A DNA stretch of 64,000 bases from the NCBI GenBank assembly GCA_944389025.1, contig CALXKU010000013.1, forward strand, positions 2,868 to 66,867, given 5' to 3'. The DNA is from an uncultured Spirochaetaceae bacterium. GTDB taxonomy: Bacteria > Spirochaetota > Spirochaetia > Sphaerochaetales > Sphaerochaetaceae. The notes under the pieces were generated by a model, which was not told where the DNA came from, made no database searches, and was given only the letters and a program-made list of their open reading frames with translations. A program made the position numbers and the translations under genes. Positions 1-20,359 of this stretch are shown piece after piece (within the stretch, counting starts at the first letter, position 1; every line of letters starts with the position of its first letter).

Positions 1-1
1 T

Positions 2-295
2 GTTTCCGAGATTGCAAAGATCTCAATAACTGCCTGGGACATGGGCAGATTGGTTATGGTGACGCGTAGCTGCTATGACTGCGGCTATATCAACGAGGAA
101 GAAGCCTGGGCATATATAGAGAATGCTCATAAAGCCTGCAAAGAAGAATATCCGGACTGGAATGAGTTTGCAAAGGGATATATTTTCGGAAGAGCAATGT
201 GGTCAGGAAATTCAGAATACCTGTCAGGTATCATGAGCATCGCAGAAGGATTGCTTTCCGATGAAGAAAGCCCCTGGAAAAAGGCCGAGCTTTGA
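2..295 (+). CDS. DUF1266-like protein, 5' end outside window
   Basis: The frame is open from nt 2 to the TGA at 293-295; the track ORF 41..295 is only the first ATG. The peptide AWDMGRLV...GYINEEEAW...WNEFAKGYIFGRAMW fits my recollection of the DUF1266 (YbeU/YbeR-like) signature. Confidence 0.6.
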   Translation, partial: VSEIAKISITAWDMGRLVMVTRSCYDCGYINEEEAWAYIENAHKACKEEYPDWNEFAKGYIFGRAMWSGNSEYLSGIMSIAEGLLSDEESPWKKAEL

Positions 296-407
296 AATAG
301 TGCTTTCCACCAAATCAGTTTTCATTTTCTGTGAAAACAGAATTTGAGATTATTGAGGAAAGCAATTTCATCATGGAGAAATGAATAGCTCCCTTGATTG
401 ATGCAAA

Positions 408-833
408 ATGAAACAGACAGACATTTACACTGAAGCTCTGCTAAGCCTTCGAACAATCCTGCAGATAGACCACCCGGAATTCAAGAACTGGATTGAATGG
501 CTGAATCAGGATATCGATGATTGGATCCAACGGAAAGATGTCTCTCACCATCTTCAGGCGTATGGTGGTATGGGCTCTTTCAACGATATACCATACATGA
601 AGGGAGATCATGATTACATCTTTGGCTTTCTGAAATCAATATGCTATGCTTTTGGTCATCTTTATCATAAAAGACAAGGCGTTACGACAGAAGCATTGAT
701 GAAAGAATGTGCATACGATGCAGCCCAGGCAGACTATCATCAAAAGAAGGAACTGAACCAAGCTATCGTCAAACATCTGATAGAAGGCGATCTGCACGAG
801 AATCTGGATAGCCTGCAGGAGAACTCACCATGA
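408..833 (+). CDS. hypothetical small cytoplasmic protein (immunity-type DUF suspected)
   Basis: 141-aa ORF with no signal peptide. Its stop overlaps the next start (ATGA at 830-833). It has a GGMGSFND motif and helical composition, but I cannot name the family with confidence. Confidence 0.5.
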   Translation: MKQTDIYTEALLSLRTILQIDHPEFKNWIEWLNQDIDDWIQRKDVSHHLQAYGGMGSFNDIPYMKGDHDYIFGFLKSICYAFGHLYHKRQGVTTEALMKECAYDAAQADYHQKKELNQAIVKHLIEGDLHENLDSLQENSP

Positions 834-1810
834 ATGATAGATTGTCCCGATCATTATTCAATAAAATGGATAACACAGAGAAGCTGGCATTGATGGAAAG
901 CCTGGCTACCCATTATGATATGGCCTTTCTTGGCCTGCATTCATTTGACCGCTGGGGACAGAGCTGTACCACTGGTATATTCAGGAAAGCGGAGAGGGAA
1001 TTTGTATTCGTTCCAGGGAATACCGTTACTCTGGGCTGGGACCGCTTCGCAATTGGCCCGAATCAGGACACCCAAAAGGAACTGGACTATCTGTTTCAAG
1101 AATGGGAGATGGAACCGCAGGATCCGGAAGAGATGATCCGAAAAAGCATGGCTCCCGTTCGGCAGGCAGCCATTGGCCCTATGCTGGTGGGGCGGGAGCT
1201 GGAGGAACTCTGCTGGGAACCAGTCAAGATGGATGATCCCAGACTGAAAAGCCATCCTGACTGGCTGAAAGAGTTCCGGGATTTTGCCTGGAGCGACCTT
1301 GATAGCCTTACCTTACACAAGTCAGCAAGAATTGAGCGAATGGGAAATGGCTTTCAGATCTGGATCTATAACAGCACAGACTATGATACGTTTATTGCCA
1401 TGCTGGAAAAGCAGGGCCTTTCGCTGCCAACGGCAGATGAATGGGCGTATCTATGCGGAGGTGGCTGCCGTACTCTGTTTCCATGGGGAGATGGACTCGA
1501 CTACTCTATGCGTCTCCACTGGTTTGGAGACATGGAGGAGAAAGAGCGCCCATACGATATGGAAGAGCCGAATTTCTTCGGTATATCAATCGCTTATGAT
1601 CCCTATATGAGGGAAGTCGTAAAGGCAGAATCCTTCACCACATGCGGCGGTGACGGCGGCTGCAATATCTGTGGAGGATTGGGGCCATTTATGGGCTATC
1701 TCCCCTGCTCCCCGCACTACAAGCCAGAAAAGCATGAGAACAGTACGCTGAATGGCGACTATGACTTCTACCGCCCAATCATCCGGATTGATAGTAAAGA
1801 ATTCACATAA
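830..1810 (+). CDS. hypothetical protein with FGE/SUMF1-like C-terminal domain
   Basis: Translationally coupled to the upstream ORF. LPTADEWAYLCGGG..LFPWGD and PNFFGISIAYD resemble the FGE-sulfatase fold motifs (LPTEAEWEYAARGG..YPWG and N.FGLYDM). No signal peptide. Confidence 0.55.
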   Translation: MNDRLSRSLFNKMDNTEKLALMESLATHYDMAFLGLHSFDRWGQSCTTGIFRKAEREFVFVPGNTVTLGWDRFAIGPNQDTQKELDYLFQEWEMEPQDPEEMIRKSMAPVRQAAIGPMLVGRELEELCWEPVKMDDPRLKSHPDWLKEFRDFAWSDLDSLTLHKSARIERMGNGFQIWIYNSTDYDTFIAMLEKQGLSLPTADEWAYLCGGGCRTLFPWGDGLDYSMRLHWFGDMEEKERPYDMEEPNFFGISIAYDPYMREVVKAESFTTCGGDGGCNICGGLGPFMGYLPCSPHYKPEKHENSTLNGDYDFYRPIIRIDSKEFT

Positions 1811-2045
1811 TAAAAAGTATAGCAATAGTTTCTTCACTACCATACCCTTCAAGATATTGATTTCTAATATATGCAACTTCAAGAATAATAAGAAATTCAT
1901 GGAATCCTCCAAAATGGCATGCTATGCTTAATGCAAGATGTTTTTTAGAAACATATTGGCTTCTGTGATCTTCGATAGTGAATCATCCACATAAGAAGGC
2001 TGATGATGTTTCTCTTCTACAGACTGAGCACCAGGAGGCGACAAA

Positions 2046-2894
2046 TTGGAAATCATCAGATTGCCGAAGAAGTTCCGGATTGTCTGCTATGGCATCATGG
2101 ATGGAAATCCAGAAGCACTGGAAACCCTTGAGAGCTTTTCAGAGAAATATCCTCATCAGGTTGCGGCAATCAAGGCAGAGGTCGCTTATTTCAACTTGAA
2201 ATATGACAAGGCACTTGATCTGGACAAGACTGTTCTCCCCTGGCTGGAGGAATGGTACTACAGCAATGTGAGCAATGAGCATATGACTGCTATGACCGTA
2301 GCTGCTATCAGGCTTCATAGGGAGCCGGAGCTTATAGATGCGCTGACTGAAGAGCAGAAACGCATCAGAGTAGATAATGGGCGACCTCAGAGGGATCGTT
2401 TCTGCGATATCCTGAAAGACTGCCTGAAGCGCGGCAAAATGCCATTCAGCGAAGACAACAGGAATTATCCATACCATGAGCCAGAAGAACCAAGGACGAA
2501 GGAAGAGCTCTGGAAGGAACTTACAGCCAAGAACAGGAAAGCGAATCTGAATGATCCTGATGACAGGAGGAAGCTATACAACCACTGCTGTATGTTCGGA
2601 ACTGCAAAGGATGCTATAGAGCTGTTTGAAAGCATTCAGGATGTACCTATGGCCGAGTCCTCATATCAGGATGCAATTGCCCGTTATCTCTATCTTGGGG
2701 ACAGGGACAAGGCACTCCACACAGCTATGCAGTTAGCAACATCGCGTCTATGGGCAGTAGCTGGACCAACACAGGTACGCCCTATGTCATTCTTTGAGGA
2801 CCCGAATCTGAGGGATTTCCTGCTGGAACCGGAATCACTTAAGTGTATACGGGAAGCAGCTTTCATAGACAATGGAACATTAATGCGGAAATAG
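2046..2894 (+). CDS. hypothetical protein
   Basis: TTG start 7 nt after AGGAGG (2033-2038). 282 aa, helical, no recognisable motif. Its stop TAG at 2892-2894 lies just before the start of the giant ORF. Confidence 0.5.
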   Translation: MEIIRLPKKFRIVCYGIMDGNPEALETLESFSEKYPHQVAAIKAEVAYFNLKYDKALDLDKTVLPWLEEWYYSNVSNEHMTAMTVAAIRLHREPELIDALTEEQKRIRVDNGRPQRDRFCDILKDCLKRGKMPFSEDNRNYPYHEPEEPRTKEELWKELTAKNRKANLNDPDDRRKLYNHCCMFGTAKDAIELFESIQDVPMAESSYQDAIARYLYLGDRDKALHTAMQLATSRLWAVAGPTQVRPMSFFEDPNLRDFLLEPESLKCIREAAFIDNGTLMRK

Positions 2895-2908
2895 AGGAGA
2901 AACTAATT

Positions 2909-5900
2909 GTGTACATAGACAAATACTGGGGCAATTACATAGGAGGATCCGATGACAGCCTAAACCTCGTAGAATTCCTTACGGACCAGAAGAAAGATGA
3001 GATACCCCTCAGTGAGATCTTTGCAGGAATAGGATTGGATAAGCAGAACTGGGATTTCCATAATACAATCGAGTATCTTGAATTCATACATTCCAATGGA
3101 ACTGAAATTGACTTCCATTTCGCTATCGATGTTGTCATCGACCTGGCTGCCATCATGCTGGAATGTGCCATCAGCGGAAGTGTAAATCTCCAAGAGCTTG
3201 ATCCATACCACACTCCTACACGCCATATCCGCATCACAGCCACGCCAGAAGAGCATGATAAAATGGACAAAACCCTTGCGGATTTCGCCAATGATCCCCT
3301 CACCTATGACCTACATGAGATGATGAATGACGATGAGATAAAGGACATGGCACATCAGGTGGAGGCTCTTCGGAAAGAGCTGTACTGGTCTGCGGGCAAG
3401 AACCGTGACTACTATGTGAAAGCTGAGGATATGAAGGAAATGCTCCCTGAATGGAAAGGGCCTGCTGGCTGCATCGCAACAAACCGCATCACGGTTGAGG
3501 GTTGCAGGATTGGCTACTGCTATCGTGAGAAAGCGGACGGAGACTGGGATAGCGGCTGGCGATTTACTGCAGGCGATGAAAGCGATGGATATATGGATGA
3601 TCCGAACAATGCCGGAATATATTCCCTGAACACAATCTGCAATGATGATCCTGAGATCATACCTCTGCTGAATACCCATGCCCCATGCGCTTTTGAGAGG
3701 GACGGAAACGGAGTGTTCCAGCAAATTAAAGATTGGAAACCAGAACAGGACGAGGAGGAAGAGAATATGGATATTTTAAAGCAGTGCCAGAAGTGGCATG
3801 AGGAGAATAAGTTCCAGAAGATAATAGATGCACTCGAAGCGATTCCTGATGCAGAACGGACGCCGGAGATGGACAGCGAACTGGCCCGCGCATACAACAA
3901 TCTAGCAGTACCTGGAAAAAGAGAGATGTTCAGGAAGGCAATCGCCCTGCTGGAACCTCATGAAGAATACTTCAAGGATGACTATTTCTGGAACTTCCGC
4001 ATGGGATACTCCTATTTCTATCTAGATCAGGAAGGGCGAGCACTGAGATACTTTGAGAAAGCTCTTGAGCTACAGCCAGATGACGAGGATACAAAGACAT
4101 TTATCAACTGGTGCAGGAAAGGGATTTCCCTTCCCCAGTTCTCTGAATGCTTCCGTGAACGGACAAAGCTGTGGTGGGAAACATTTGCCGAGATGGAATC
4201 TGAATTCCGCCAGATGATGGACAATGACAAGAATCATACGCATGGTGATGAACTTGTGAGTCAGATGAATGAAGTCCTGAATCTGGCCTTTGATGAGATC
4301 AGCTTCGAAATGGGCTTCAACGGTAAGAAATACGAGCTGATACTCACTCCAGAGGGTGATAAGGTCAAGCTCTTCGAGCTGGTCTATTTCCAGAAGCATG
4401 CTCCGGAGAAGATCCTTGAACACTGGAACATTCTGGTAGGCCGGCAGCCTTCCAGGAACATAGGGCTCCGTACCGACGATGGATGGGACATTTCAGGTGA
4501 TGATGTGCAGATCTGGCTTGAAGAGATTGAAGAGAACAGCTTCAGGATCTCTGCCTACTGTGAAAAGCTGCTGCCAATGCTTCAGGAAAATGAAGGACGC
4601 GCATGGTGGATGCTCACTACCATCACCGACCAGGTTCTGGGAGAGATTCCCCATATGAGATACATAGACAGCTTCGATGTCCTTGAGACTCCGAAAGCAG
4701 AGCCATCCATCACCATGTCCCAGTTACCAGACAAGCTGCAGGAAAAAGGAATGGACCTCTCCGCTGACCCAGCAAAATATCTTGAAACATCATATACAGG
4801 ATACAGCATGGAACCTGACAAGAATCCAGATGCGGATCTGCGCCTGGATATCATAGCAGGATCCACATGCTGTGTACCGCTTATCAACGGATATCTGGAT
4901 GGGGACAATGATTTCATGGACAATCTCCATGCAGATGGAAGCGTTGCGGGATTTCTCTTCTATCCCCTTGATACCCTTCAGGAAGAAGAAGGCAGCCAGA
5001 AGATCTTCGATTTCCGTGACAAGCTGGAAGAGGCGCTGACTGAAGGAGACGGACCGGAAGCACTTACTCTCATCGGCGGTGCAACCGGCCTCCAGTATGG
5101 CTATGTTGACTTCATCGCATGGGATATCGGAAAGGCTCTTGATATGGCATCGGACTTCTTCGAGAAGACTGATCTGCCATGGGCAGGCTTCCATACATTC
5201 AGGCGTGAAGCGAAAGCCATAAAGCTCAAGGACCAGAATGAAGGCAACGATAACGATGATGAAGATGAAACCGAAACTGATGAGCTTGAGGAGACGCTCA
5301 CAGGGATGGACTACATACCATACACACCGCAGGATGCAGATGAGTTCTTTGCACAGCTTGAGAAATGGAATGATGAAGATGAGTACACACGCTGCATCCA
5401 GGCACTGAACGCAATCCCTGAAGACTGGAGGAACTACCGCACAGCATATGCCCTTGCCAGAGCTCTGGAGAACTATGCAATCATCGGAGACCATAAGGAA
5501 GGAACGCCAAGCTACAAAGGAGACAAAGCTCTCAACAAAGCCATCAATGCCTTGGAATCCGTTAGGAAAGATGGAGAAGACAAGGCTGAGTGGAACATGA
5601 GGATGGCCTATGGATACCAGTATCTCTTCGGCCAGGAGGAAAATGCACTTCCCTATGCCAGGAAATGGGCAGAGCTTGATCCTGCAGACGAGGATGCTGA
5701 GGCTGTAATCGGTGACTGTGAAAGGAGGATTGCCGAGCGTAAAGAGGCGGAGAAGAGCGACCACAGGGGAGTATTCACAGGCTTCGTACTGCTATCCAAA
5801 GGAGAATGGGACAAGGCGCAGTTCATCCATGATATGAAGGAGAAATGGGATATCACGGTGGATGAACATGACGAGAGCGAAGACAAGAGCGATGATACTA

Positions 5901-7858
5901 CCCTAGTATTCGAGACCGATGACATGATGGCTGCCATCAGCCTGATGCCATACCCGATTCCAGGAAAAGAGGCCGAGGAGAATGCAGAGAACAATTACCT
6001 CTGGCCTGATGCGGTGAAGGCCGCGGAAAAACACAAAGCCCATATAATGGTGGCAGTTCTTGGCAAAGGCGATGATTTCATAAAGAAAGGCAAGCTATAT
6101 ACAAAGATAATTGCCACATGCTGTCGTCAGGAATATGCAACAGGAATCTACACAAGCGGAGTCGTCTTCCAACCTGAATACTATGAGCATTTTGCAGACA
6201 TGATGAAGGAAGACGAGCTGCCCATCTTCAACTGGATCTGGTTCGGCCTGTACAAAGGCGAGAAAGGCATGAATGCCTATACATATGGGATGGATATCTT
6301 CGGAAAGGATGAGATGGAAGTTCTGGATGCGGATGCAAAGCCGGAAGAGCTGCATGGCTTCCTTGCAAATATCGTATCATATGTCCTGAATGGCGATGTC
6401 GTGCTTAAGGACGGCGAGACAATCGGATTCACAGAGAACGACAAGCACACAATCACGCGGAGCCCTGGGGTTGGACTCCCAGAAGACCAGATGACACTGA
6501 AGATCTCGTACAAGCCTTCGGATGGAGGCCCTGAAGACGATGATGATAGTGATAACAATCCTGAAGATGTTGAGGTCTATACACCTGAGGAGATGGATGA
6601 TGCAGATTTCCACATTGAGACTATCCATGAGAAGGGACTGCCCGTAGATGAGCTGAACGCCTACAGCCACATGGCAATATATCTCCGCTGGTGCATGGAA
6701 AATGACCTGATGGGAGAAGACTTCCTGAAGGAATACAGCGAAACAGTGAAGCAAGTAAAGAAAAATCCATCCAGCGTGGATTTGAGGATTTTCATCAGGG
6801 ATGAACTGGATGGACAGCTTACAGGTCCTATGTTCAATAAAAAGGGCCGTGCGTTTGCCTCATACTATTATGGTGAGATGGATAGTCCATATTACCCTAG
6901 CGATATCGACAACTATGCCATCGGTATGATTGGAGAAGAACGGAATTACTCCGATGAGATCCAGGATGAGGCATACCTCTTCATCCCGTTTGATGAAGAA
7001 TACTATCAAGCGATGGCAAAGGTGATCGGAAGGCGCTTCGAGAACTGGCAGGGACAGGATTTTGATGAGGATACCCTTGAACCTTCTGATCTAGCTCAGG
7101 CATTCATGGAATACCTTGGTTGCGAGTGCACCTACTTTCCTTCCATGAAGGATGATGACCCAACCATGTCGGCATACAGCTATGCTAGGCGCGATGCTGC
7201 ACATGAAGGCTTTATCCCAATACTCATCAATGCATCAGATGAAACCCTGTGGGAGTGCCTTATCATGAATTCCGACCCGGATAGTGATGGCAACGATGAC
7301 TATTCATTCGCTCCCGATAAGGTGTCAAAGTACAGGGAGAGAATGCTTTCTGCCCCAGTCGGGAACGGGAAAGATACACTGAAGGCGCTTATAGATCAAA
7401 GGAAGGAAGAAACAGAAGATGATGAGATGGACTGGGAAGAGGAAATCCTGGGCAGCATGGAAGGCGGCTATGACAACTGCCGCCTTACAAGCTACTGGAA
7501 TGATGAAAATGGAATGACCTACCCTCTCATCCTTGCAAAGATACCGGTGAGAAAACCGTGGGAGATCTTCGCATATCTTCCATTCGGAGGCTGGAATGAC
7601 TGCCCCGATACGCCAGTCCTGATGGCTGTCGCGAAATACTGGGCAGAGGAATACGGAGCAGTTCCTGCCGCAGTGACACACGATGAGCTGGAATTCATGC
7701 TTGATTCCCCAATTCCTGAAGACAAGGCAATGGATACGGCCATTGAGCAGTATGGCTTCTGTCCTGATGTAATCGATCAGGGACAGGAGGAAGACACGGT
7801 TGGATCTCTTGCAGATGTCCTGCGGCAGTCCACGGTCTGGTACTTCTGGTGGGATTGA
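2909..7858 (+). CDS. giant multi-module protein (DUF2185-like, 2 TPR-like modules, DUF4026-like, DUF4253-like)
   Basis: One uninterrupted frame. The track start GTG 2843 overlaps the upstream gene, while in-frame GTG 2909 sits 9 nt after AGAGGAG (2893-2899). Modules recognised by motif recall: GYCYRE..DSGWRF (about 3467-3735), TPR-like 3767-4128 and 5333-5745, DUF4026-like about 5767-6515, and LPFGGWNDCP..YGA (about 7204-7855). Poly-acidic linkers join them. Confidence 0.7.
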   Translation: MYIDKYWGNYIGGSDDSLNLVEFLTDQKKDEIPLSEIFAGIGLDKQNWDFHNTIEYLEFIHSNGTEIDFHFAIDVVIDLAAIMLECAISGSVNLQELDPYHTPTRHIRITATPEEHDKMDKTLADFANDPLTYDLHEMMNDDEIKDMAHQVEALRKELYWSAGKNRDYYVKAEDMKEMLPEWKGPAGCIATNRITVEGCRIGYCYREKADGDWDSGWRFTAGDESDGYMDDPNNAGIYSLNTICNDDPEIIPLLNTHAPCAFERDGNGVFQQIKDWKPEQDEEEENMDILKQCQKWHEENKFQKIIDALEAIPDAERTPEMDSELARAYNNLAVPGKREMFRKAIALLEPHEEYFKDDYFWNFRMGYSYFYLDQEGRALRYFEKALELQPDDEDTKTFINWCRKGISLPQFSECFRERTKLWWETFAEMESEFRQMMDNDKNHTHGDELVSQMNEVLNLAFDEISFEMGFNGKKYELILTPEGDKVKLFELVYFQKHAPEKILEHWNILVGRQPSRNIGLRTDDGWDISGDDVQIWLEEIEENSFRISAYCEKLLPMLQENEGRAWWMLTTITDQVLGEIPHMRYIDSFDVLETPKAEPSITMSQLPDKLQEKGMDLSADPAKYLETSYTGYSMEPDKNPDADLRLDIIAGSTCCVPLINGYLDGDNDFMDNLHADGSVAGFLFYPLDTLQEEEGSQKIFDFRDKLEEALTEGDGPEALTLIGGATGLQYGYVDFIAWDIGKALDMASDFFEKTDLPWAGFHTFRREAKAIKLKDQNEGNDNDDEDETETDELEETLTGMDYIPYTPQDADEFFAQLEKWNDEDEYTRCIQALNAIPEDWRNYRTAYALARALENYAIIGDHKEGTPSYKGDKALNKAINALESVRKDGEDKAEWNMRMAYGYQYLFGQEENALPYARKWAELDPADEDAEAVIGDCERRIAERKEAEKSDHRGVFTGFVLLSKGEWDKAQFIHDMKEKWDITVDEHDESEDKSDDTTLVFETDDMMAAISLMPYPIPGKEAEENAENNYLWPDAVKAAEKHKAHIMVAVLGKGDDFIKKGKLYTKIIATCCRQEYATGIYTSGVVFQPEYYEHFADMMKEDELPIFNWIWFGLYKGEKGMNAYTYGMDIFGKDEMEVLDADAKPEELHGFLANIVSYVLNGDVVLKDGETIGFTENDKHTITRSPGVGLPEDQMTLKISYKPSDGGPEDDDDSDNNPEDVEVYTPEEMDDADFHIETIHEKGLPVDELNAYSHMAIYLRWCMENDLMGEDFLKEYSETVKQVKKNPSSVDLRIFIRDELDGQLTGPMFNKKGRAFASYYYGEMDSPYYPSDIDNYAIGMIGEERNYSDEIQDEAYLFIPFDEEYYQAMAKVIGRRFENWQGQDFDEDTLEPSDLAQAFMEYLGCECTYFPSMKDDDPTMSAYSYARRDAAHEGFIPILINASDETLWECLIMNSDPDSDGNDDYSFAPDKVSKYRERMLSAPVGNGKDTLKALIDQRKEETEDDEMDWEEEILGSMEGGYDNCRLTSYWNDENGMTYPLILAKIPVRKPWEIFAYLPFGGWNDCPDTPVLMAVAKYWAEEYGAVPAAVTHDELEFMLDSPIPEDKAMDTAIEQYGFCPDVIDQGQEEDTVGSLADVLRQSTVWYFWWD

Positions 7859-8109
7859 TAGGAGGTGCAGAATAAGGCAACGATGGCAAAAACACTATCA
7901 ATACAGCTGAATGATGAACAGATGGATTTCCGTAGACAGCTTACCTGCATTCACGGTTGTTCCACTTAAGATGAACTGCAAACCGCATGGCATTCCGAGG
8001 TAAGAGATATTGGATTCTGAGCCGCCATGCAGGAAATGGTTTTCTATGCTGTGGAACATGGTAAGGCAATATTTGCTACTGGAGATCGAGAAGAAATCAG
8101 GAGGAAGGG

Positions 8110-8469
8110 ATGTCGCAGATTGCATCATTTTATCTGATAAGGAACAAACAGCGTCAGATGCTGCACGATGGCAACTGTTCCGGAGCTGTATATATGGCTA
8201 TCTGGGATTGGTGTGAATGCGAACTGGATCTGGATATGCGCTTTACCGCCCCACAGACAGAGGATACATTGGATTGTGTTCTGATAGACAAAGAACTGGC
8301 ATTCAGGTTGCTGAAGGCGCTGAAAGAACATGATATCCAGGAACTGGCAGAGGGAATCGCTCTGGATTGGGATCTCTCCACAGAAGCAGTTCAGGAAGGG
8401 CTTGAAACACTGAATGCTCACCTGAAACTGGTAAACAGCGATACAGCTTTGCTGTATGAGATGACATAA
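8110..8469 (+). CDS. hypothetical small acidic protein
   Basis: ATG 5 nt after AGGAGG (8099-8104). 119 aa with no signal peptide and no family recognised. Confidence 0.5.
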   Translation: MSQIASFYLIRNKQRQMLHDGNCSGAVYMAIWDWCECELDLDMRFTAPQTEDTLDCVLIDKELAFRLLKALKEHDIQELAEGIALDWDLSTEAVQEGLETLNAHLKLVNSDTALLYEMT

Positions 8470-8489
8470 AGAAGGAGGTTCCTACCCTG

Positions 8490-9623
8490 ATGGAGAGAGT
8501 TTTCATCAATCCCATTACAAATAAACAGTGGCAGCTTGAGGTAGATGGTCTGACAATCAGAACATGCCTGAACGGAGGGAGGGTCAAGGAAATCCAGTGC
8601 GACTCCGCTTTCCAAGTCAGGAGCAAAGCTGCAAGTGCTATGATGGAACAGCTGCGAAAAGGCTTTGTCTATCAGAAGCCAGAGGCTGCAACAGGAGAAG
8701 CGATCTGCCACAGATTCGTAGGAAGAGATAACAATGGCTTCATGCCTTTGGCAACCAGTCCCCACAGGGATGATTTCTTCCTGACAAGAGTATCAGGGAA
8801 TTTTGATGACGAGATTCTCTATCACTTTGACGGAAACGGAAAGATAATCGAAACTGTTTCCCTGGGGGCAAAACGAATGACTTACGAACAGGTCCTTTGC
8901 CCAAATGACACGCTGATAATGAATAACAGCTATCTTCTGGAGCAGTTTTCTCTCCATACCCATGAGATCAAGCCTTTCGCAAACAGAAAGAACAGTATGA
9001 AGACCATGCTGGATGGAAGCGGGAACCTTGCCTTGTGGTACACGGGTGAGGAGATTGTCGTCTTTGACTTTGCGGACAACAGGGAAATATGGAAGGAATG
9101 CGTGAAGTGCAGAAAATCAAAAGATCCTGCTTTTGCATACTATTGCTTTGGGATGCTGTCTCCACAGCAAAGCAAAGCTGCCTATCAGGTCACAAAAGGC
9201 GAGTATGTGATTGTTGATCTGAATACTGGACGAAAAGTCGTAATCCAGAATGATGGATGGCATCCTTTCTTTTCTCCGTATGACCAATGCTTCTCAGTGG
9301 GAGGGAAGTTCTATCAGGCAGAAACTGGAGAAGAGACAGAGAACCCCTTCCCCTTTACCGTACGACAGGGACTAAGCCTTTCAGATACCTGCACAGTCAG
9401 GATAAGGGGAAGCCTGATGGCAGTCCAGCAGGAACGGGGCAACTCCCCCATAGAGCTGTGGGATACTGACAGGCGAGAACTGATAGCTTCCATCTGTGAT
9501 CCATTTGTTGTGAAACAGACGAGTTTCGCATTCACTGATAAAGGACTGGTTCTGCACACCGATTACGGGACTATGAGCATCTATCAATGTACTGATGAAA
9601 AAGAAGGATTATGCAGTGGATAG
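8490..9623 (+). CDS. hypothetical protein, WGR-like N-terminus plus repeat-rich body
   Basis: AGGAGG lies upstream. The N-terminus KQWQLEVDG..RT..NGGRVKE..F....A..A...QLRKGFVY resembles a WGR domain. The remainder is beta-rich and may be a propeller. Confidence 0.5.
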   Translation: MERVFINPITNKQWQLEVDGLTIRTCLNGGRVKEIQCDSAFQVRSKAASAMMEQLRKGFVYQKPEAATGEAICHRFVGRDNNGFMPLATSPHRDDFFLTRVSGNFDDEILYHFDGNGKIIETVSLGAKRMTYEQVLCPNDTLIMNNSYLLEQFSLHTHEIKPFANRKNSMKTMLDGSGNLALWYTGEEIVVFDFADNREIWKECVKCRKSKDPAFAYYCFGMLSPQQSKAAYQVTKGEYVIVDLNTGRKVVIQNDGWHPFFSPYDQCFSVGGKFYQAETGEETENPFPFTVRQGLSLSDTCTVRIRGSLMAVQQERGNSPIELWDTDRRELIASICDPFVVKQTSFAFTDKGLVLHTDYGTMSIYQCTDEKEGLCSG

Positions 9624-9685
9624 AAGAATCATTGATCATAGAAACGATGAGGATTGATTAGGCCATATAGTGAAAGGAGGCATTC

Positions 9686-10465
9686 ATGGGACTTGATATC
9701 TATGCAGGAACGCTTACGCGTTATTACACACATAACTGGAGGACCATTGTCCAGCAATGGGCAGAGGAGAGCGGATACTCATTCAGCAGGATCTCACCAG
9801 ATGAAGATGATATCAATGACGAGAATGCATTGTCTCCGGAAGAGGTGCAGGATGCAGTGGAAAACTGGCGGGACCAGATACTTAACGCGTTGGACACAGG
9901 TGGCAAAGAACCATATGCCCCATGGGAAGAGGATAATGAGAAACCCTACTACACTGACAAACCTGATTGGGATGCCTTTGGAGCCATGCTCCTTGTAGCT
10001 GCATGCCACACATACAACGAACCTGTACCTCCAGATGTGGAAAAGGACTGGGACTTCGGGGAACATCCATTGATCGCAAGGCTTGCGGGGGATCATGAAC
10101 GGGTATGGTCACTCTTCAGAGGTACTGTCTGCTGGCTCCCGATTTCTGACAGCTTCATATTCCAGGCTCCCATGCCCAATGGGAATGAAGTCACAATTGG
10201 AACAATCGGAGGTCTTAGGAAAGAGCTGGATAAGCTGAACCAGCTGGCATGGCAGGCTGATGAGACAACAATCATCGGATGGTCTGAAACCGAAGGTTAT
10301 CCTGTTGATGGCACTGTGGACCAGAATGGACAGTTCAGCAAAGAAGATATACCGGAACACACAAAGTACGATACCCAGGCACTGGCTAAATTTGCCTTCT
10401 CGATGTTCTGGCAGGCTATGCTGTTCGCCGAGAATCATCAGGTGCCAATCATGCTGGACTTCTGA
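9686..10465 (+). CDS. hypothetical protein
   Basis: ATG 6 nt after AGGAGG. 259 aa, acidic and Trp-rich, cytoplasmic. No family recognised. Confidence 0.5.
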   Translation: MGLDIYAGTLTRYYTHNWRTIVQQWAEESGYSFSRISPDEDDINDENALSPEEVQDAVENWRDQILNALDTGGKEPYAPWEEDNEKPYYTDKPDWDAFGAMLLVAACHTYNEPVPPDVEKDWDFGEHPLIARLAGDHERVWSLFRGTVCWLPISDSFIFQAPMPNGNEVTIGTIGGLRKELDKLNQLAWQADETTIIGWSETEGYPVDGTVDQNGQFSKEDIPEHTKYDTQALAKFAFSMFWQAMLFAENHQVPIMLDF

Positions 10466-10606
10466 TTACATTTTCTGGGTATGGGTATCATATGGAACAG
10501 AAGTATCCTACAAAGATATTCAGTGAAGCTCTGGATACCGATAGTTCATCAGAAAGGAAATGGAATTCGGATTCAGAGGATTTATAAATGGAAAGGAGGA
10601 AAGAAA

Positions 10607-11485
10607 ATGAGCGATAAGATATTCCAACAGGAACTGAAGGATGACAACGCATTTCATTATGGGGGACCGTTTATCATCCAGATGCTCTTCAAAAAACCAG
10701 TGGATATGCCTGATAAGGCAAAGATGACTGCAGTAATTGCAAAGCATATCGGTCCGATAGAGTGTTTCTGCCATGACAAGCAGACAGCGGGCTTTGCCGC
10801 TCTGGAGCATATTGCCGAGTTCAAGGACGGAAAAGGACCGGTGCAGCTCATGGTCATGGGATGCAGCAGCTTTGAGGGAGAAGGATTCGATGATTTCCTC
10901 ATGAGCCAGATGTGGGACTGCCAGGAAGACAGGGAGAGGATCTTCAGGGAATGCCAGTATCAGGTTGTTGCGATTGACATGCTGGCAGCAGCACTTCCTG
11001 CCCTGGAGCGTGCCGATCTGGATGCTGACTTCATGGATGCGCTTGCAGAGCTTTATCCTACATGCGAGGCATTCTATTTTCAGAACAGTGGGAAGCTGTT
11101 TCTGGCAGAGGATGTGCGCTCACACCAGATTGAAGGTCCGGATCGTTTCATAAAGTTCGGTGTCAATGTCAGATTCTTCACTATTCAGGGAACGGATGAT
11201 ATGCTCGTGGATACATTAGGCATGGGTACCCTATTCCTGCCAGATCTTCAGTACCATTTCCATGGCATGGATCCTGACTGGGTGGTCAACCATGCGTATA
11301 ATGTGCTTTCGTATATCCTTACAAACAATAATCCGATCAAAGATGGCGAAACCGTAGATGGCGTAGAAGACGGCCGGATGAGCAGACGCATACAATGGAC
11401 GTGCCAGTATGAGAATGCGCTGATCCAGCCACCAAGGGATGTCATAGACATAAACATGGGGGAATACGCGTCAGGAAACAGATGA
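10607..11485 (+). CDS. hypothetical protein (possibly DUF4261-like)
   Basis: The track ORF starts at 10481, but ATG 10607 lies 7 nt after AGGAGG (10594-10599), and the 42 upstream codons look non-coding. The family guess is weak. Confidence 0.5.
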   Translation: MSDKIFQQELKDDNAFHYGGPFIIQMLFKKPVDMPDKAKMTAVIAKHIGPIECFCHDKQTAGFAALEHIAEFKDGKGPVQLMVMGCSSFEGEGFDDFLMSQMWDCQEDRERIFRECQYQVVAIDMLAAALPALERADLDADFMDALAELYPTCEAFYFQNSGKLFLAEDVRSHQIEGPDRFIKFGVNVRFFTIQGTDDMLVDTLGMGTLFLPDLQYHFHGMDPDWVVNHAYNVLSYILTNNNPIKDGETVDGVEDGRMSRRIQWTCQYENALIQPPRDVIDINMGEYASGNR

Positions 11486-11693
11486 TAAAGAACTTGTTTC
11501 TAACAAGAAAAGCAAGGTTGACGGGCTTTGTAAAAACATTGTCTGCTTATTTATTATAAGCAAAGTAATTATTTTGCTGTTGCGATAATAGAAATAATAC
11601 GTATATCAGTTTTAAGGATTTTTCGCTGGTAGGAATTTGGAAGGAAAAATCTGAAATAATAGCGATAATCGACATAAAATAAAAAATCGTCAT

Positions 11694-11711
11694 AAAACAA
11701 GTACTTGTTTT
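11694..11711 (-). terminator. possible terminator hairpin downstream of guaA-type gene
   Basis: Perfect palindrome AAAACAAG-TA-CTTGTTTT, 33 nt past the stop, followed on the minus strand by a T-rich run. The stem is weak and AT-rich. Confidence 0.3.
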
Positions 11712-11743
11712 ACAACGATTTATATATTACGTAAAAAGTGTAA

Positions 11744-12724
11744 TCATTCCCATTCGATTGTGCCACAGGGCTTTGGTGTCATATCGAATACAACCCTGTT
11801 AACACCTTTCACTTCCTTCAGAATTCTGTCTGTTATATGGGAAAGAAGAGCAAATGGTATCTCTGCTACTGTTGCGGTCATTGCATCTTTTGTATTTACA
11901 GCCCTAATGATTACAGGATATTCGAATGATCTCTTGCCGTCTTTCACACCAACGGACTTGAAGTCTGGAACAGCTGTGAAATACTGCCACACCTTTCCTT
12001 CCAAGCCATTCTTCGCAAACTCTTCTCTCAGTATTGCATCGGACTCCCTTACGCACTCAAGGCGATCACGTGTGATAGCCCCAAGGCATCTTACACCAAG
12101 CCCAGGACCTGGGAACGGCTGACGATAGACCATGCTATCTGGAAGGCCGAGGGCCTTTCCCACGACCCTTACCTCATCCTTATAGAGGAACTTGAGAGGC
12201 TCAACAAGTTCGAATTTAAGATCCTCTGGAAGACCACCTACGTTGTGATGTGCCTTTACCCCGTCGCTTTCGAGGATATCAGGATAGATTGTCCCTTGGG
12301 CAAGGAATCCGATTCCCTCCAGTTTTCTTGCTTCTTCTTCGAAAACCCTTATGAACTCAGCTCCTATTATCTTCCTCTTCTTTTCCGGCTCTTCGACTCC
12401 TGCAAGCTTATCGAGGAAACGATCTACTGCATCGACATATATGAGGTTCGCATCCATCTCATGTCTGAAAACCTTGACAACCTGCTCAGGCTCCCCCTTT
12501 CTTAAAAGGCCATGATTTACATGAACACATACAAGGTTCTTACCAATAGCCTTGATTAAAAGAGCCGCGACCACGGAGGAATCAACACCTCCAGAGAGGG
12601 CCAGAAGAACCTTTCCGTCCTTTACCTGCTCCTTTATCTTTGAAATCTGTTCGGAAATGAAAGCATTCGCAGCTTCTGCAGTCTCTATTCTCTTTAGAGA
12701 CTCCGGTCTAACGTTATCAGCCAT
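11744..12724 (-). CDS. guaA: GMP synthase, ATP pyrophosphatase/dimerisation subunit only (no GATase domain)
   Basis: SGGVDSS P-loop, GTIYPD..ES, HHNVGGLP, PL..L.KDEVR..G..LGLP and the C-terminal KP.GTIEWE are all hallmarks of the GuaA C-terminal half. The ORF is only 326 aa. Confidence 0.9.
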   Translation of the reverse strand: MADNVRPESLKRIETAEAANAFISEQISKIKEQVKDGKVLLALSGGVDSSVVAALLIKAIGKNLVCVHVNHGLLRKGEPEQVVKVFRHEMDANLIYVDAVDRFLDKLAGVEEPEKKRKIIGAEFIRVFEEEARKLEGIGFLAQGTIYPDILESDGVKAHHNVGGLPEDLKFELVEPLKFLYKDEVRVVGKALGLPDSMVYRQPFPGPGLGVRCLGAITRDRLECVRESDAILREEFAKNGLEGKVWQYFTAVPDFKSVGVKDGKRSFEYPVIIRAVNTKDAMTATVAEIPFALLSHITDRILKEVKGVNRVVFDMTPKPCGTIEWE

Positions 12725-12940: not shown

Positions 12941-14143
12941 ATGAAAATAATCGAACGAATATTGGCTCCAGATTTAAAGCGCCTCGCCAGTACTTACAAA
13001 GTATTAACAATATTCGGGCCAAGACAGGCAGGAAAATCTACGTTAGCAAAGAAAGTTTTCCAGGAATACGAATTCATCAATCTTGAAGATTCTGCATTGA
13101 GCATGGAAGCAATAGAAGATCCAAAAGGTTTCCTGATAAATCATCCATCGCCTCTCATCATAGATGAAATTCAGCGAGTACCATCACTAATAAGCCAGAT
13201 TCAGGCAAATGTTGACAAGAGCGACAAAAACGGACAATACATCTTAACAGGAAGCTATCAGAAAGAAGTAAGAAAAGCGGTTGCACAATCTCTTGCAACC
13301 AGAACAGCCACAGCTTATCTTTTACCGCTCTCTCTCATGGAACTAACAAATGCAGGGATAACACTGCCTCGAAATGAGCAGATGTTCACAGGCTTCATGC
13401 CCAACATCTATAGCAGTCCGGGAATCGTCCCTTCCGAATACTATTCATACTACCGCTCAATCCATCTTGATAAGGACATAAGAGAAGAAAAGAATTTTTC
13501 AGACCTGCATCAATTTCATGTTTTCCTTGAAATAATGGCGGGACGAGCAGCTCAACTGGTCAACCATACAGCAATTTCCGGGGAAGTGGGAGTAAGCTCA
13601 ACAACTATAAAAGAATGGACGGGACTGCTTGAAAACGCATATATAATATATTTTCTTCCGCCATGGAGCAGGAATTTGACAAGCAGAGCTGTAAAAACTC
13701 CTAAAATATATTTCATAGAAACAGGACTTCTTGTATCCCTTGCAAGAATCTCAAGTCCGAAAGAGATTGGAATCACATCACTGACAGGAGCAATATTTGA
13801 AAACATGGTTGTTATGGAAGCACTGAAAGCCCGACTTAATTGCTCCGCAGAACCTAAACTATATTTTTTCAAAGACAACAATGGCCTTGAAGTAGATCTG
13901 ATATTAGAAAAAGGAATAAGAGAAATCGAACTTTTCGAAATCAAATCAGCCTATACCATTTCAAATGATTTCACAAGAAACATGAACAGGTTTGAAAAGC
14001 TCCATCCTGGCTATAAGATAGGCAAGAACATCATATATTCAGGAGAAACCCTTCCCGAGCCGATTAATGGAGTAAGATACATCAACTATAAGGATATTGC
14101 CCCATATTTTACTGAAGAAGAAAAATATATTCCCCGATTTTAG
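12941..14143 (+). CDS. AAA-family ATPase with DUF4143-type C-terminal domain
   Basis: Walker A GPRQAGKST and Walker B-like LIIDEIQ. The roughly 400-aa length and architecture are typical of AAA_14/DUF4143 proteins. Confidence 0.8.
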   Translation: MKIIERILAPDLKRLASTYKVLTIFGPRQAGKSTLAKKVFQEYEFINLEDSALSMEAIEDPKGFLINHPSPLIIDEIQRVPSLISQIQANVDKSDKNGQYILTGSYQKEVRKAVAQSLATRTATAYLLPLSLMELTNAGITLPRNEQMFTGFMPNIYSSPGIVPSEYYSYYRSIHLDKDIREEKNFSDLHQFHVFLEIMAGRAAQLVNHTAISGEVGVSSTTIKEWTGLLENAYIIYFLPPWSRNLTSRAVKTPKIYFIETGLLVSLARISSPKEIGITSLTGAIFENMVVMEALKARLNCSAEPKLYFFKDNNGLEVDLILEKGIREIELFEIKSAYTISNDFTRNMNRFEKLHPGYKIGKNIIYSGETLPEPINGVRYINYKDIAPYFTEEEKYIPRF

Positions 14144-20308: not shown

Positions 20309-20359
20309 CAGGAGAGAACCATTCAAGGTAAATTAAGAAAACAAAGGAGGGTGAAGCAC

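What the first reader, a model, noticed from the sequence alone, without database searches (positions are those of the whole stretch)
2909..7858. 1,649-aa single polypeptide that concatenates modules normally seen as separate small immunity-type proteins
The frame is uninterrupted for almost 5 kb. Along it I recognise a DUF2185-like block (GYCYRE..DSGWRF..N..IYSL), two TPR-like modules, a DUF4026-like block, a helical block (HMAIYLRWCMENDLMGEDF) and a DUF4253-like C-terminus (LPFGGWNDCP...YGA). They are separated by strongly acidic linkers (NDNDDEDETETDELEE; EDDDDSDNNPEDVEV). As far as I recall, these families are typically stand-alone proteins of about 100-250 aa in polyimmunity loci. A covalent chain of at least five of them would be a multi-immunity protein, or a decoy/sponge for several effectors. 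That is unusual and untested.
Basis: partly seen in the sequence, partly recalled or inferred. Interest (0 to 1): 0.65.

Follow-up and report, generated by a model that had tools for sequence, protein, structure and literature searches.

The report
Giant multi-domain "polyimmunity" protein, already described
This 1,649-residue gene really does string together at least seven toxin-immunity-type modules. Such "polyimmunity proteins" of gut Firmicutes were described by comparative genomics in 2012 and have thousands of close relatives, so this is an ordinary member of a known, still experimentally untested, class.

Summary
Window 2909-7858 (+) is one uninterrupted 1,649-aa ORF with a GTG start and a GAGGAG ribosome-binding site. 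Pfam hits above threshold are Imm68, Imm33 (DUF2185), DUF4261, DUF7832 and DUF4253. There are also two TPR blocks and a roughly 360-aa domain (X1) that Pfam does not cover. The protein is cytoplasmic and very acidic (pI 4.3). dN/dS against its closest relative is about 0.11 overall.

The multi-immunity reading matches a published class. Zhang et al. 2012 (PMC3482391) defined "polyimmunity proteins" that combine Imm68, Imm33, SUKH, SuFu, Imm66/67/69 and TPR, with up to 10 domains in Firmicutes. The family is common: 4,937 hits, mostly 1,860-2,070 aa, in gut Clostridia and also Bacteroidales. So "unusual" is wrong and "untested" is right.

New details:
- The gene sits inside a long co-directional array of small immunity-type genes.
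- The closest relative differs by one CAG>TAG change in the first acidic linker. This splits the protein into two genes at a retained SD+ATG.
- That relative also carries a 633-bp SUFU module. The window lost it by deletion between 11-bp repeats.
- TPR1+X1 is one ~480-aa unit that is also common as a stand-alone protein (AlphaFold pLDDT 95).
- One relative's array is flanked by conjugation and integrase genes.

No partner toxin was found.

The parts
2895..2900 (+). Shine-Dalgarno-like GAGGAG, 8 nt upstream of the GTG start at 2909
   Evidence: sequence read directly
2909..7858 (+). Polyimmunity protein gene: 1,649 aa, pI 4.3, 351 D+E against 155 K+R, no hydrophobic segment or signal peptide
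   Evidence: dN/dS 0.109 against the L020 orthologue
2912..3382 (+). Module 1: Imm68 (aa 2-158)
   Evidence: Pfam PF15583, E 4e-40, 138 bits against a cut-off of 29.6
3470..3727 (+). Module 2: Imm33 / DUF2185 (aa 188-273). Stand-alone homologues match aa 163-281.
   Evidence: Pfam PF09951, E 2e-32; stand-alone 'DUF2185 domain-containing proteins'
3734..3769 (+). Acidic linker 1 (WKPEQDEEEEN) followed by an internal ATG at 3767-3769. Codon CAG 3746-3748 is TAG in the closest relatives. GAGGAGG at 3752-3758 then serves as the SD for the downstream 1,575-aa gene. This is a fission/fusion joint.
3767..5233 (+). Module 3: TPR1 (3 TPR repeats, aa ~293-408) plus X1 (alpha/beta, aa ~409-775). They form one ~480-aa unit; X1 is not in Pfam.
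   Evidence: End-to-end matches to many ~480-520-aa stand-alone proteins. AlphaFold2 pLDDT 95.5, pTM 0.92. Foldseek matches only the TPR part. No Pfam family for X1 in 42 members.
5234..5299 (+). Acidic linker 2 (aa 776-797, DQNEGNDNDDEDETETDELEET)
   Evidence: net charge -13 over 25 aa
5300..5758 (+). TPR2 block (aa ~798-950). Some relatives have a SUKH/SMI1_KNR4 module inserted just after it.
   Evidence: Similarity to TPR1 and to the TPR N-termini of L016/L022 proteins. SUKH insertion in P0070, P0109 and L004. The boundary is approximate.
5768..6511 (+). Module 4: DUF4261-type module (aa 954-1201; Pfam core aa 1124-1199 = nt 6278-6505).
   Evidence: Pfam PF14080, E 7e-22. Stand-alone 'DUF4261 domain-containing proteins' align over aa 954-1201. 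No DUF4026 hit at E<=1.
6515..6597 (+). Acidic linker 3 (aa 1203-1228) with the deletion scar GAGGAGATGGA at 6587-6597. In L020 two copies of this 11-mer flank a 633-bp (211-aa) SUFU module that the window lacks. The window keeps the first residues of that module (EVYTPEEM).
   Evidence: SUFU present at this site in most relatives
6593..6934 (+). Module 5: DUF7832 (aa 1229-1342), helical
   Evidence: Pfam PF25191, E 3e-34
6935..7531 (+). X3: unassigned region (aa 1343-1541) that travels with DUF7832 and DUF4253 in shorter relatives
   Evidence: No Pfam hit. Conserved in the L010 452-aa protein. dN/dS 0.043.
7532..7855 (+). Module 6: DUF4253 (aa 1542-1649), C-terminus ...WYFWWD
   Evidence: Pfam PF14062, E 1e-32
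41..11485 (+). 3' part of the surrounding co-directional array of small immunity-type genes: DUF1266, DUF6966, five genes without a Pfam family, the giant gene, and a terminal DUF4261 gene. The array continues at least 7 kb upstream of the window on the source contig.
   Evidence: homology with L020 ends at 11483
11684..11721 (.). Perfect-loop hairpin (19-nt arms), terminator-like, between the end of the array and the convergent gene

Best explanation
The gene encodes a cytoplasmic polyimmunity protein. It is a chain of independently folding toxin-binding modules: Imm68, Imm33, TPR1+X1, TPR2+DUF4261-type, DUF7832, X3 and DUF4253. The modules are joined by flexible, strongly acidic linkers. Each module is inferred to bind and block a different toxin domain injected by competing bacteria. 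Several of these are probably nucleases, given the Imm33/SUFU/SUKH associations and the DNA-like negative charge. One transcript and one start codon therefore pre-emptively supply many immunities in equal amounts.

The gene is one element of a long orphan-immunity array that contains no toxin gene. Its module content changes by events at the linkers: microhomology deletion or insertion of whole modules, and splitting or fusing of genes through a single stop-codon change at a retained SD+ATG.

Shown here: the domain content, the cytoplasmic and acidic nature, purifying selection, array context, stand-alone existence of modules, and the two linker events. Inferred: toxin binding and protection.
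For: - Domain families above Pfam thresholds.
- The same families are named as the components of polyimmunity proteins in PMC3482391.
- pI 4.3 and no TM or signal segment.
- dN/dS 0.04-0.24 in every module.
- In the six loci with enough flank (window/L001, L017-L020, L022) the gene lies in a co-directional array rich in immunity or damage-repair families, with no toxin gene seen. Families include Imm51, Imm32, Imm-NTF2, Barstar, SUKH, NADAR, RtcB and PTS_2-RNA.
- Modules occur as separate proteins and in other orders.
- CAG>TAG split at linker 1 with SD+ATG, and a SUFU deletion between 11-bp repeats at linker 3.
- A second, independent SUFU-less junction exists in P0018-type proteins.
- Presence/absence polymorphism of array genes at one chromosomal site (L027 vs L028).
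Against: - No partner toxin was identified in the window or in any fetched locus.
- No module was tested for toxin binding here or, as far as the literature search shows, anywhere.
- Zhang et al. list no associated toxin for Imm68 or Imm67, so their 'immunity' label rests on guilt by association.
- X1 and X3 have no annotation.
- Two stand-alone TPR+X1 genes that were looked up were not next to toxin genes.
- TPR1 resembles peptide-binding co-chaperone TPRs, which would also fit a scaffold role.
Confidence: 0.7

Rival explanations
1. The gene is translated or processed into several smaller products rather than acting as one 190-kDa chain. Candidate routes are internal initiation at the SD+ATG in linker 1 (3752-3769) or cleavage in the acidic linkers. 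The fusion would then be mainly a compact way of encoding separate immunity proteins.
For: A canonical AGGAGG lies 8 nt upstream of the in-frame ATG at 3767. The same ATG is the called start of the 1,575-aa gene in L020/L021 after a single nonsense change. Module starts often coincide with a Met that aligns with the initiator Met of stand-alone versions (L010 and L011 ORFs).
Against: Only one of the linkers has a well-spaced SD+ATG. No protease domain is present. The uninterrupted frame is conserved in most of thousands of relatives. This implies selection on the fused state, or at least no cost from it.
Confidence: 0.15
2. The protein is not an immunity chain but one integrated scaffold or chaperone-like machine. 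Its TPR domains would recruit a client and the other domains would cooperate on one task, for example sensing or sequestering a single class of invader protein.
For: There are two TPR blocks. TPR1 matches Hsp90/Hsp70-peptide-binding TPR domains structurally (RPAP3, SGT, FKBP51; TM 0.7-0.78 on the target). TPR1 and X1 fold as one rigid unit (pTM 0.92). Module order is well conserved among the top 120 homologues.
Against: Modules are gained, lost, split off and reordered freely among relatives while staying under selection. Examples are SUFU present or absent, SUKH present or absent, DUF4259 present or absent, Imm68-Imm33 as its own gene, and the L016 order TPR-SUFU-DUF7832-Imm33. This is not expected of an obligate multi-domain machine. 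There are no enzymatic or signalling domains. The genomic company is other immunity genes.
Confidence: 0.1
3. The long ORF is an artefact, either an assembly join or a decaying fusion of pseudogenes.
For: The gene comes from metagenome assemblies. Close relatives show a nonsense split and a module deletion.
Against: The identical protein is found on two independent long contigs, and a third assembly covers its first third. dN/dS is 0.11, with every module constrained. Thousands of full-length relatives exist, including in isolate genomes such as Flavonifractor sp. An10.
Confidence: 0.02

Closest known systems
Polyimmunity proteins of Firmicutes (Zhang, de Souza, Anantharaman, Iyer, Aravind 2012, Biol Direct 7:18; example gi 160893617, Clostridium sp. 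L2-50)
   Same: Many structurally unrelated immunity domains in one cytoplasmic polypeptide. The same named families appear (Imm68, Imm33/DUF2185, SuFu and SUKH in relatives, TPR). Encoded in a toxin-free operon of other immunity genes. Found in Firmicutes.
   Different: The paper says polyimmunity proteins tend to sit in small loci of two or three genes, and may not occur in bacteria that have extended polyimmunity loci. Here, and in L017-L020 and L022, the giant gene is embedded in an extended array of 20-30 genes. The mapping of DUF4261, DUF7832, DUF4253 and X1 onto the paper's Imm66, Imm67, Imm69 and SuFu-family-2 could not be established because the supplementary file is not held.
Acquired interbacterial defence (AID / rAID-1) clusters of Bacteroidales (Ross et al., bioRxiv 10.1101/471110, published 2019)
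   Same: Long co-directional arrays of orphan immunity genes in human-gut bacteria. Content varies between strains. Some arrays sit on integrative conjugative elements. One relative here (Subdoligranulum, L022) has a T4SS coupling-protein fragment upstream and WYL, HTH/M78 and a tyrosine integrase downstream.
   Different: AID genes are single-domain and were shown to protect against T6SS effectors. Here the host is a Clostridia member (no T6SS is expected, from general knowledge). There is no 5' XerD-like recombinase or integron-like intergenic repeat in the window. There is no low-GC skew. Several other arrays have no mobility genes within 10 kb. Nothing has been tested experimentally.
Tandem T7SS immunity gene strings (esaG, tipC) that evolve by recombination between paralogues (Garrett et al. 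2022, PMC9484751)
   Same: The immunity repertoire in Firmicutes changes by recombination between short shared sequence blocks, which deletes or expands units. Here an 11-bp repeat at module starts deleted the SUFU module.
   Different: Those are separate paralogous genes of one family. Here the units are unrelated domains inside one ORF, and the homology is only microhomology in the linker and module-start codons.
Polyvalent proteins of phages and conjugative elements (Iyer et al. 2017, J Bacteriol; cited from memory, not read here)
   Same: Very large proteins that concatenate many conflict-related domains. They are associated with mobile elements.
   Different: Those combine enzymatic anti-restriction or DNA-modifying domains and are thought to be delivered with the DNA. 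This protein has no enzymatic domain and no PADLOC hit.

Membership tests
Polyimmunity protein (Zhang et al. 2012) | Two or more distinct immunity-protein domains in one polypeptide | tested here: met
   Imm68 and Imm33 are above the Pfam gathering scores, as are DUF4261, DUF7832 and DUF4253, which co-occur with them. Definition in PMC3482391, section 39.
Polyimmunity protein (Zhang et al. 2012) | Encoded in an operon of immunity genes without an associated toxin gene or cassette | tested here: met
   No toxin family was found among the genes of window 41-11485, the 7 kb upstream, or the arrays of L017-L020. Several neighbours have no Pfam family, so a hidden toxin cannot be fully excluded.
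Polyimmunity protein (Zhang et al. 2012) | Cytoplasmic globular protein without enzymatic domains | tested here: met
   Maximum 19-residue hydropathy is 1.95, with no signal or TM segment. No enzymatic family in Pfam or NCBIfam.
Polyimmunity protein (Zhang et al. 2012) | Neutralises more than one toxin | not testable with these tools
   Needs co-expression, binding or competition experiments. No published test was found.
Pfam Imm68 (PF15583) | Full-length HMM match above the gathering score | tested here: met
   138 bits against 29.6; profile positions 1-152 of 152
Pfam Imm33 / DUF2185 (PF09951) | Full-length HMM match above the gathering score | tested here: met
   111.6 bits against 25.4; profile positions 1-86 of 87
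   No DUF4026 hit at E<=1. The region is covered by DUF4261 (PF14080, 77.8 bits) and by stand-alone DUF4261 proteins over aa 954-1201.
Pfam DUF4253 (PF14062) and DUF7832 (PF25191) | HMM match above the gathering score | tested here: met
   113 and 118 bits against a cut-off of 27
TPR repeat domain | Helix-turn-helix repeats with the TPR sequence profile and fold | tested here: met
   The single sequence is just below the Pfam cut-offs (25.5 against 27). The family profile matches TPR structures at 1e-33. The AF2 model superposes on 3-TPR domains with TM 0.7-0.78.
AID / rAID-1 systems (Ross et al. 2019) | 5' XerD-like recombinase, low-GC co-directional genes and integron-like intergenic repeats (rAID-1), or location on an ICE (AID-1) | tested here: inconclusive
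   The window shows no recombinase, no repeat family and no GC skew. An ICE-like context is seen in one relative (L022) and partly in L019, but not in L024-L029. The 5' end of the window's own array lies outside the data.
Anti-phage defence systems (PADLOC) | Match to a PADLOC model | tested here: not met
   No hit for the giant protein or its six neighbours

The most novel reading that the evidence does not exclude
These arrays, with their giant polyimmunity gene, may be the Firmicutes counterpart of Bacteroidales AID systems: horizontally mobile (sometimes ICE-borne) pre-emptive immunity islands shared across gut Clostridia, Erysipelotrichaceae and Bacteroidales. On this reading the acidic linkers are evolved joints. 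Their purine-rich GAG/GAT codons supply microhomology for whole-module deletion or insertion, and also latent SD+ATG signals. Modules could then be swapped, split off or fused without loss of function. The ~480-aa TPR+X1 unit would be a new immunity family, absent from Pfam, whose alpha/beta part had no match in PDB or BFVD, although TPR hits dominated both searches.
Probability: 0.3. Interest if true: 0.55.

Novelty: new member of a known kind. Interest (0 to 1): 0.3.

Why it matters
If polyimmunity proteins work as predicted, a single gene protects abundant gut Clostridia against many contact-dependent toxins at once. Its transfer between species would reshape who can kill whom in the gut.

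This window adds a tidy natural experiment for that untested idea. Near-identical loci differ by a one-base gene split and by a clean single-module deletion. It also shows that giant polyimmunity genes live inside extended immunity arrays, not instead of them. The class and its predicted role have been in the literature since 2012, so the finding is a useful example and not a discovery.

Tried and rejected
- AlphaFold2 of aa 409-775 with a shallow 20-sequence alignment failed (pLDDT 35). It was repeated successfully on aa 293-775 with 42 diverse stand-alone homologues.
- A sequence search of the whole protein against PDB gave nothing beyond weak TPR hits.
- Foldseek searches of PDB and BFVD matched only the TPR part. 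No fold was assigned to X1. TPR hits dominate the lists, so a weak X1 match could be hidden.
- The supplementary data of Zhang et al. are not held, so Imm66, Imm67 and Imm69 could not be mapped onto the DUFs.
- BLAST of the five unannotated neighbours against the giant protein, and of the giant protein against itself, found no internal paralogy. The only exception is a weak DUF4261 match at E 0.003.
- PADLOC gave no defence-system match.
- There are no integron-like intergenic repeats in the array and no informative promoter or terminator inside it.
- The idea that all acidic linkers are fossil SD+ATG intergenic regions was rejected. Only linker 1 has a properly spaced SD; linker 2 has spacing of 12 nt and linker 3 has none.
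- Organism: an exact-sequence look-up gave no names. TrpB points to an uncultured Clostridia member (85% identity to a 'Clostridiaceae bacterium' MAG). The 'Spirochaetaceae' label on the near-identical 7-kb contig L003 is probably a binning error, but this is not settled, because a terminal-gene homologue is labelled Candidatus Treponema faecavium.
- Looking for toxins beside stand-alone TPR+X1 genes found none in two look-ups.
- 'ICE cargo' as a general rule was rejected. It holds for L022 and partly for L019, but not for L024-L029.
Full report
**Observation**

Window 2909-7858 (+) translates without interruption into 1,649 residues. The maximal ORF begins at 2843. The GTG at 2909 follows a GAGGAG box by 8 nt and lies just after the upstream gene's stop, so it is the likely start.

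The product has pI 4.3 (351 Asp+Glu against 155 Lys+Arg). It has no hydrophobic segment that could be a signal peptide or membrane helix, and it has four stretches with net charge of -11 or lower over 25 residues.

**Domain content**

Pfam gives five families far above their gathering scores:

| Module | Residues | E-value |
|---|---|---|
| Imm68 | aa 2-158 | 4e-40 |
| Imm33 (= DUF2185) | aa 188-273 | 2e-32 |
| DUF4261 | aa 1124-1199 | 7e-22 |
| DUF7832 | aa 1229-1342 | 3e-34 |
| DUF4253 | aa 1542-1649 | 1e-32 |

- A TPR at aa 363-392 falls just under threshold on the single sequence.
- 'DUF4026' is not supported. Stand-alone 'DUF4261 domain-containing proteins' align over the whole of aa 954-1201, so that stretch is one DUF4261-type module.

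Residues 293-775 (TPR1 plus an unassigned ~360-aa region, X1) behave as one unit:
- An exhaustive search of 1.84 billion representative proteins found 1,457 relatives.
- Many are ~480-520-aa stand-alone proteins matched end to end. Others sit at varied positions in 700-1,770-aa proteins.
- None of 42 diverse members has a Pfam family over X1.
- With that alignment AlphaFold2 gives a confident single-body model (pLDDT 95.5, pTM 0.92).
- Foldseek matches only the three-TPR part, which resembles peptide-binding co-chaperone TPR domains. No match to the X1 alpha/beta part was seen in PDB or BFVD, though TPR hits dominate both lists.
- An earlier model from a shallow alignment failed.

NCBIfam, PADLOC and a PDB sequence search added nothing.

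**Is it real?**

- The identical protein is on two independent contigs of about 109 and 112 kb.
- A third assembly covers window 1-4412 at 99.9% identity.
- Against the closest relative (L020), dN/dS is 0.109 overall and 0.04-0.24 in every module, including X1 and X3.

It is a functional gene, not an assembly join or a decaying fusion.

**How common is it?**

A search of 5.8 billion proteins returned 4,937 hits. The best 120 are all 1,575-2,070 aa with the same backbone.
- Most carry an extra SUFU module between DUF4261 and DUF7832.
- Some also have a SUKH (SMI1_KNR4) module after TPR2, or a DUF4259 module at the N-terminus.
- Named sources include [Eubacterium] siraeum, Flavonifractor sp. An10 and Subdoligranulum variabile.
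- More distant full or partial versions occur in Erysipelotrichaceae, Enterocloster bolteae, Oscillospiraceae, Anaerotruncus, Bacteroides gallinaceum and Parabacteroides.
- Shorter combinations exist: DUF7832-X3-DUF4253 (452 aa), SUFU-DUF7832 (450 aa), TPR-SUFU-DUF7832-Imm33 (819 aa), SUFU-DUF7832-DUF4253 (652 aa) and TPR+X1 alone (481 aa).

The window organism is probably an uncultured Clostridia member. Its TrpB is 85% identical to that of a 'Clostridiaceae bacterium' MAG.

**Context**

In the window the gene lies in a tight co-directional run from position 41 to 11485. The run holds DUF1266, DUF6966, five genes without a Pfam family, and a terminal DUF4261 gene. A hairpin at 11684-11721 lies just beyond the end of the run.

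The source contig extends the run at least 7 kb upstream, with DUF5713, DUF4241, Imm-NTF2, NADAR, C_GCAxxG and DUF6881. The relatives with enough flank (L017-L020, L022) show the same picture:
- Arrays have 20-30 genes.
- They include Imm51, Imm32, SUKH, Barstar, RtcB, PTS_2-RNA, NADAR, DUF4304 and SF0329.
- They always end with the DUF4261 gene.
- No toxin gene is recognisable.

Array content differs between genomes, and even at one chromosomal site (L027 against L028). Flanks differ between genomes, and homology between the window and L020 stops at the array end.

In Subdoligranulum variabile the array is bracketed by mobile-element genes. A T4SS coupling-protein fragment lies upstream. WYL, HTH, M78 and a tyrosine integrase lie downstream, before housekeeping genes. 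L019 shares the WYL and HTH genes. Other arrays sit between housekeeping genes with no mobility gene within 10 kb. Mobility is therefore plausible but not general. The rest of the window holds ordinary metabolic, transport and signalling genes.

**Two informative differences from the closest relative**

L020 and L021 share 88-96% DNA identity with window 327-11483.

1. Gene split. In linker 1 the window's CAG (3746-3748, Gln280) is TAG in both relatives. Everything else stays in frame. The downstream GAGGAGG (3752-3758) and ATG (3767) then serve as ribosome-binding site and start of a 1,575-aa gene, after a 279-aa Imm68-Imm33 gene. One base thus converts one protein into two.

2. Module deletion. 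L020 has 633 extra bases (211 aa, the SUFU module) flanked by two copies of GAGGAGATGGA. The window has one copy, at 6587-6597, and retains the first residues of the SUFU module (EVYTPEEM). It therefore lost the module by an in-frame microhomology deletion. SUFU-less proteins of the P0018 type have a different junction, so the loss (or gain) happened more than once.

Synonymous divergence also drops from about 0.4-0.9 upstream of this junction to 0.04-0.17 downstream. This points to a recombination breakpoint at a module boundary. Only linker 1 has a well-spaced SD+ATG, so the idea that every linker is a fossil intergenic region was dropped.

**Comparison with what is known**

Zhang et al. [quoted passage not shown]
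- They name SUKH, SuFu, Imm33, Imm66, Imm67, Imm68, Imm69 and TPR as the usual components.
- They state that some Firmicutes proteins have up to 10 immunity domains.
- The present protein meets the testable criteria: several immunity domains, a toxin-free immunity operon, and a cytoplasmic non-enzymatic protein.
- Actual toxin neutralisation cannot be tested here, and two literature searches found no experimental study of such proteins.

One point differs from that paper. It suggested that polyimmunity proteins sit in small loci and may not coexist with extended polyimmunity loci. Here they are embedded in extended arrays.

The arrays resemble the experimentally validated AID and rAID-1 clusters of Bacteroidales. 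The window, however, lacks the recombinase, the repeats and the GC skew that define rAID-1.

Recombination-driven turnover of immunity units is known for tandem esaG and tipC genes. Here the same logic acts on domains inside one ORF.

**Mechanism and confidence**

Most likely (about 0.7), the protein is a chain of independent toxin-binding modules that gives pre-emptive, equimolar immunity against several incoming toxins. The extreme acidity and the Imm33/SUFU/SUKH associations with HNH-type nucleases in Zhang's tables point to nucleic-acid-targeting toxins for at least some modules.

Rivals:
- Production as several pieces through internal initiation or processing (0.15; not exclusive of the main reading).
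- An integrated TPR scaffold (0.1).
- An artefact (0.02).

**Verdict**

The claim of rarity is wrong. This is a new member of a known, computationally defined and experimentally untested kind, with some useful evolutionary detail.

Noticed in passing
window 12941-14143 (+): An AAA_14/DUF4143 ATPase gene just outside the array matches the PADLOC candidate defence family PDC-S01 (E 3e-87).
   Followed up: no
window 11744-12724 (-): A 325-aa ORF has a PP-loop ATPase region and the GMP-synthase C-terminal domain but no glutamine amidotransferase domain. It is convergent with the array end.
   Followed up: no
window 16253-20308 (+) and 20351-22924 (+): A 1,351-aa GGDEF/EAL/PAS protein is followed by an 857-aa CheB methylesterase-CheR methyltransferase-PAS fusion. 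This is an unusual single-polypeptide pairing of opposing chemotaxis enzymes.
   Followed up: no
window 10481-11485 (+): The terminal DUF4261 gene is listed as a 334-aa ORF, but nearly all homologues are 291-294 aa and cover 87% of it. The true start is probably about 40 codons downstream. Some clusters of this protein hold 5,000-10,000 member sequences, so it is extremely abundant in gut metagenomes.
   Followed up: partly
L003 (CALXXO010000103.1) vs window 1-4412: A 7-kb contig 99.9% identical to the window is binned in a 'Spirochaetaceae' MAG, whereas the window's TrpB points to Clostridia. This is probably a binning error. However, a homologue of the terminal array gene is labelled Candidatus Treponema faecavium, and its loci (L027-L029) sit beside a ribosomal/rpoB operon.
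   Followed up: partly
window 2909-7855 vs L020 2483-8065: Synonymous divergence is mosaic: dS is about 0.3-0.9 for modules upstream of 6597 and 0.04-0.17 downstream. This suggests a recombination breakpoint at the SUFU junction.
   Followed up: partly
L022/L023 (OY725843.1, Subdoligranulum variabile 'plasmid 9'): This 75.8-kb record is typed as a non-mobilizable plasmid but carries housekeeping genes (TrkH, LeuA, aconitase-family) beside an integrase and a T4SS coupling-protein fragment. It looks like a chromosomal fragment with an integrated element and not a plasmid. It also has a second, 671-aa polyimmunity protein (TPR-SUFU-DUF7832-Imm33) upstream of the 2,065-aa one.
   Followed up: partly
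L024-L026, about 5207-5999: Short arrays carry separate 142-aa TPR and 118-123-aa DUF7832 genes side by side. These are possibly remnants of a broken-up polyimmunity gene.
   Followed up: no
L027 vs L028 (same flanks): At one chromosomal site, four array genes are present in one sample and absent in another. They include a 652-aa SUFU-DUF7832-DUF4253 protein and an Imm32 gene. This is strain-level presence/absence polymorphism.
   Followed up: no
MT838307.1 (hit H16), 'Bacteriophage sp.' 5.4-kb contig from human faeces: It encodes a TPR+X1 homologue (29% identity over aa 285-777). It may be phage-borne, or the contig may be misclassified.
   Followed up: no
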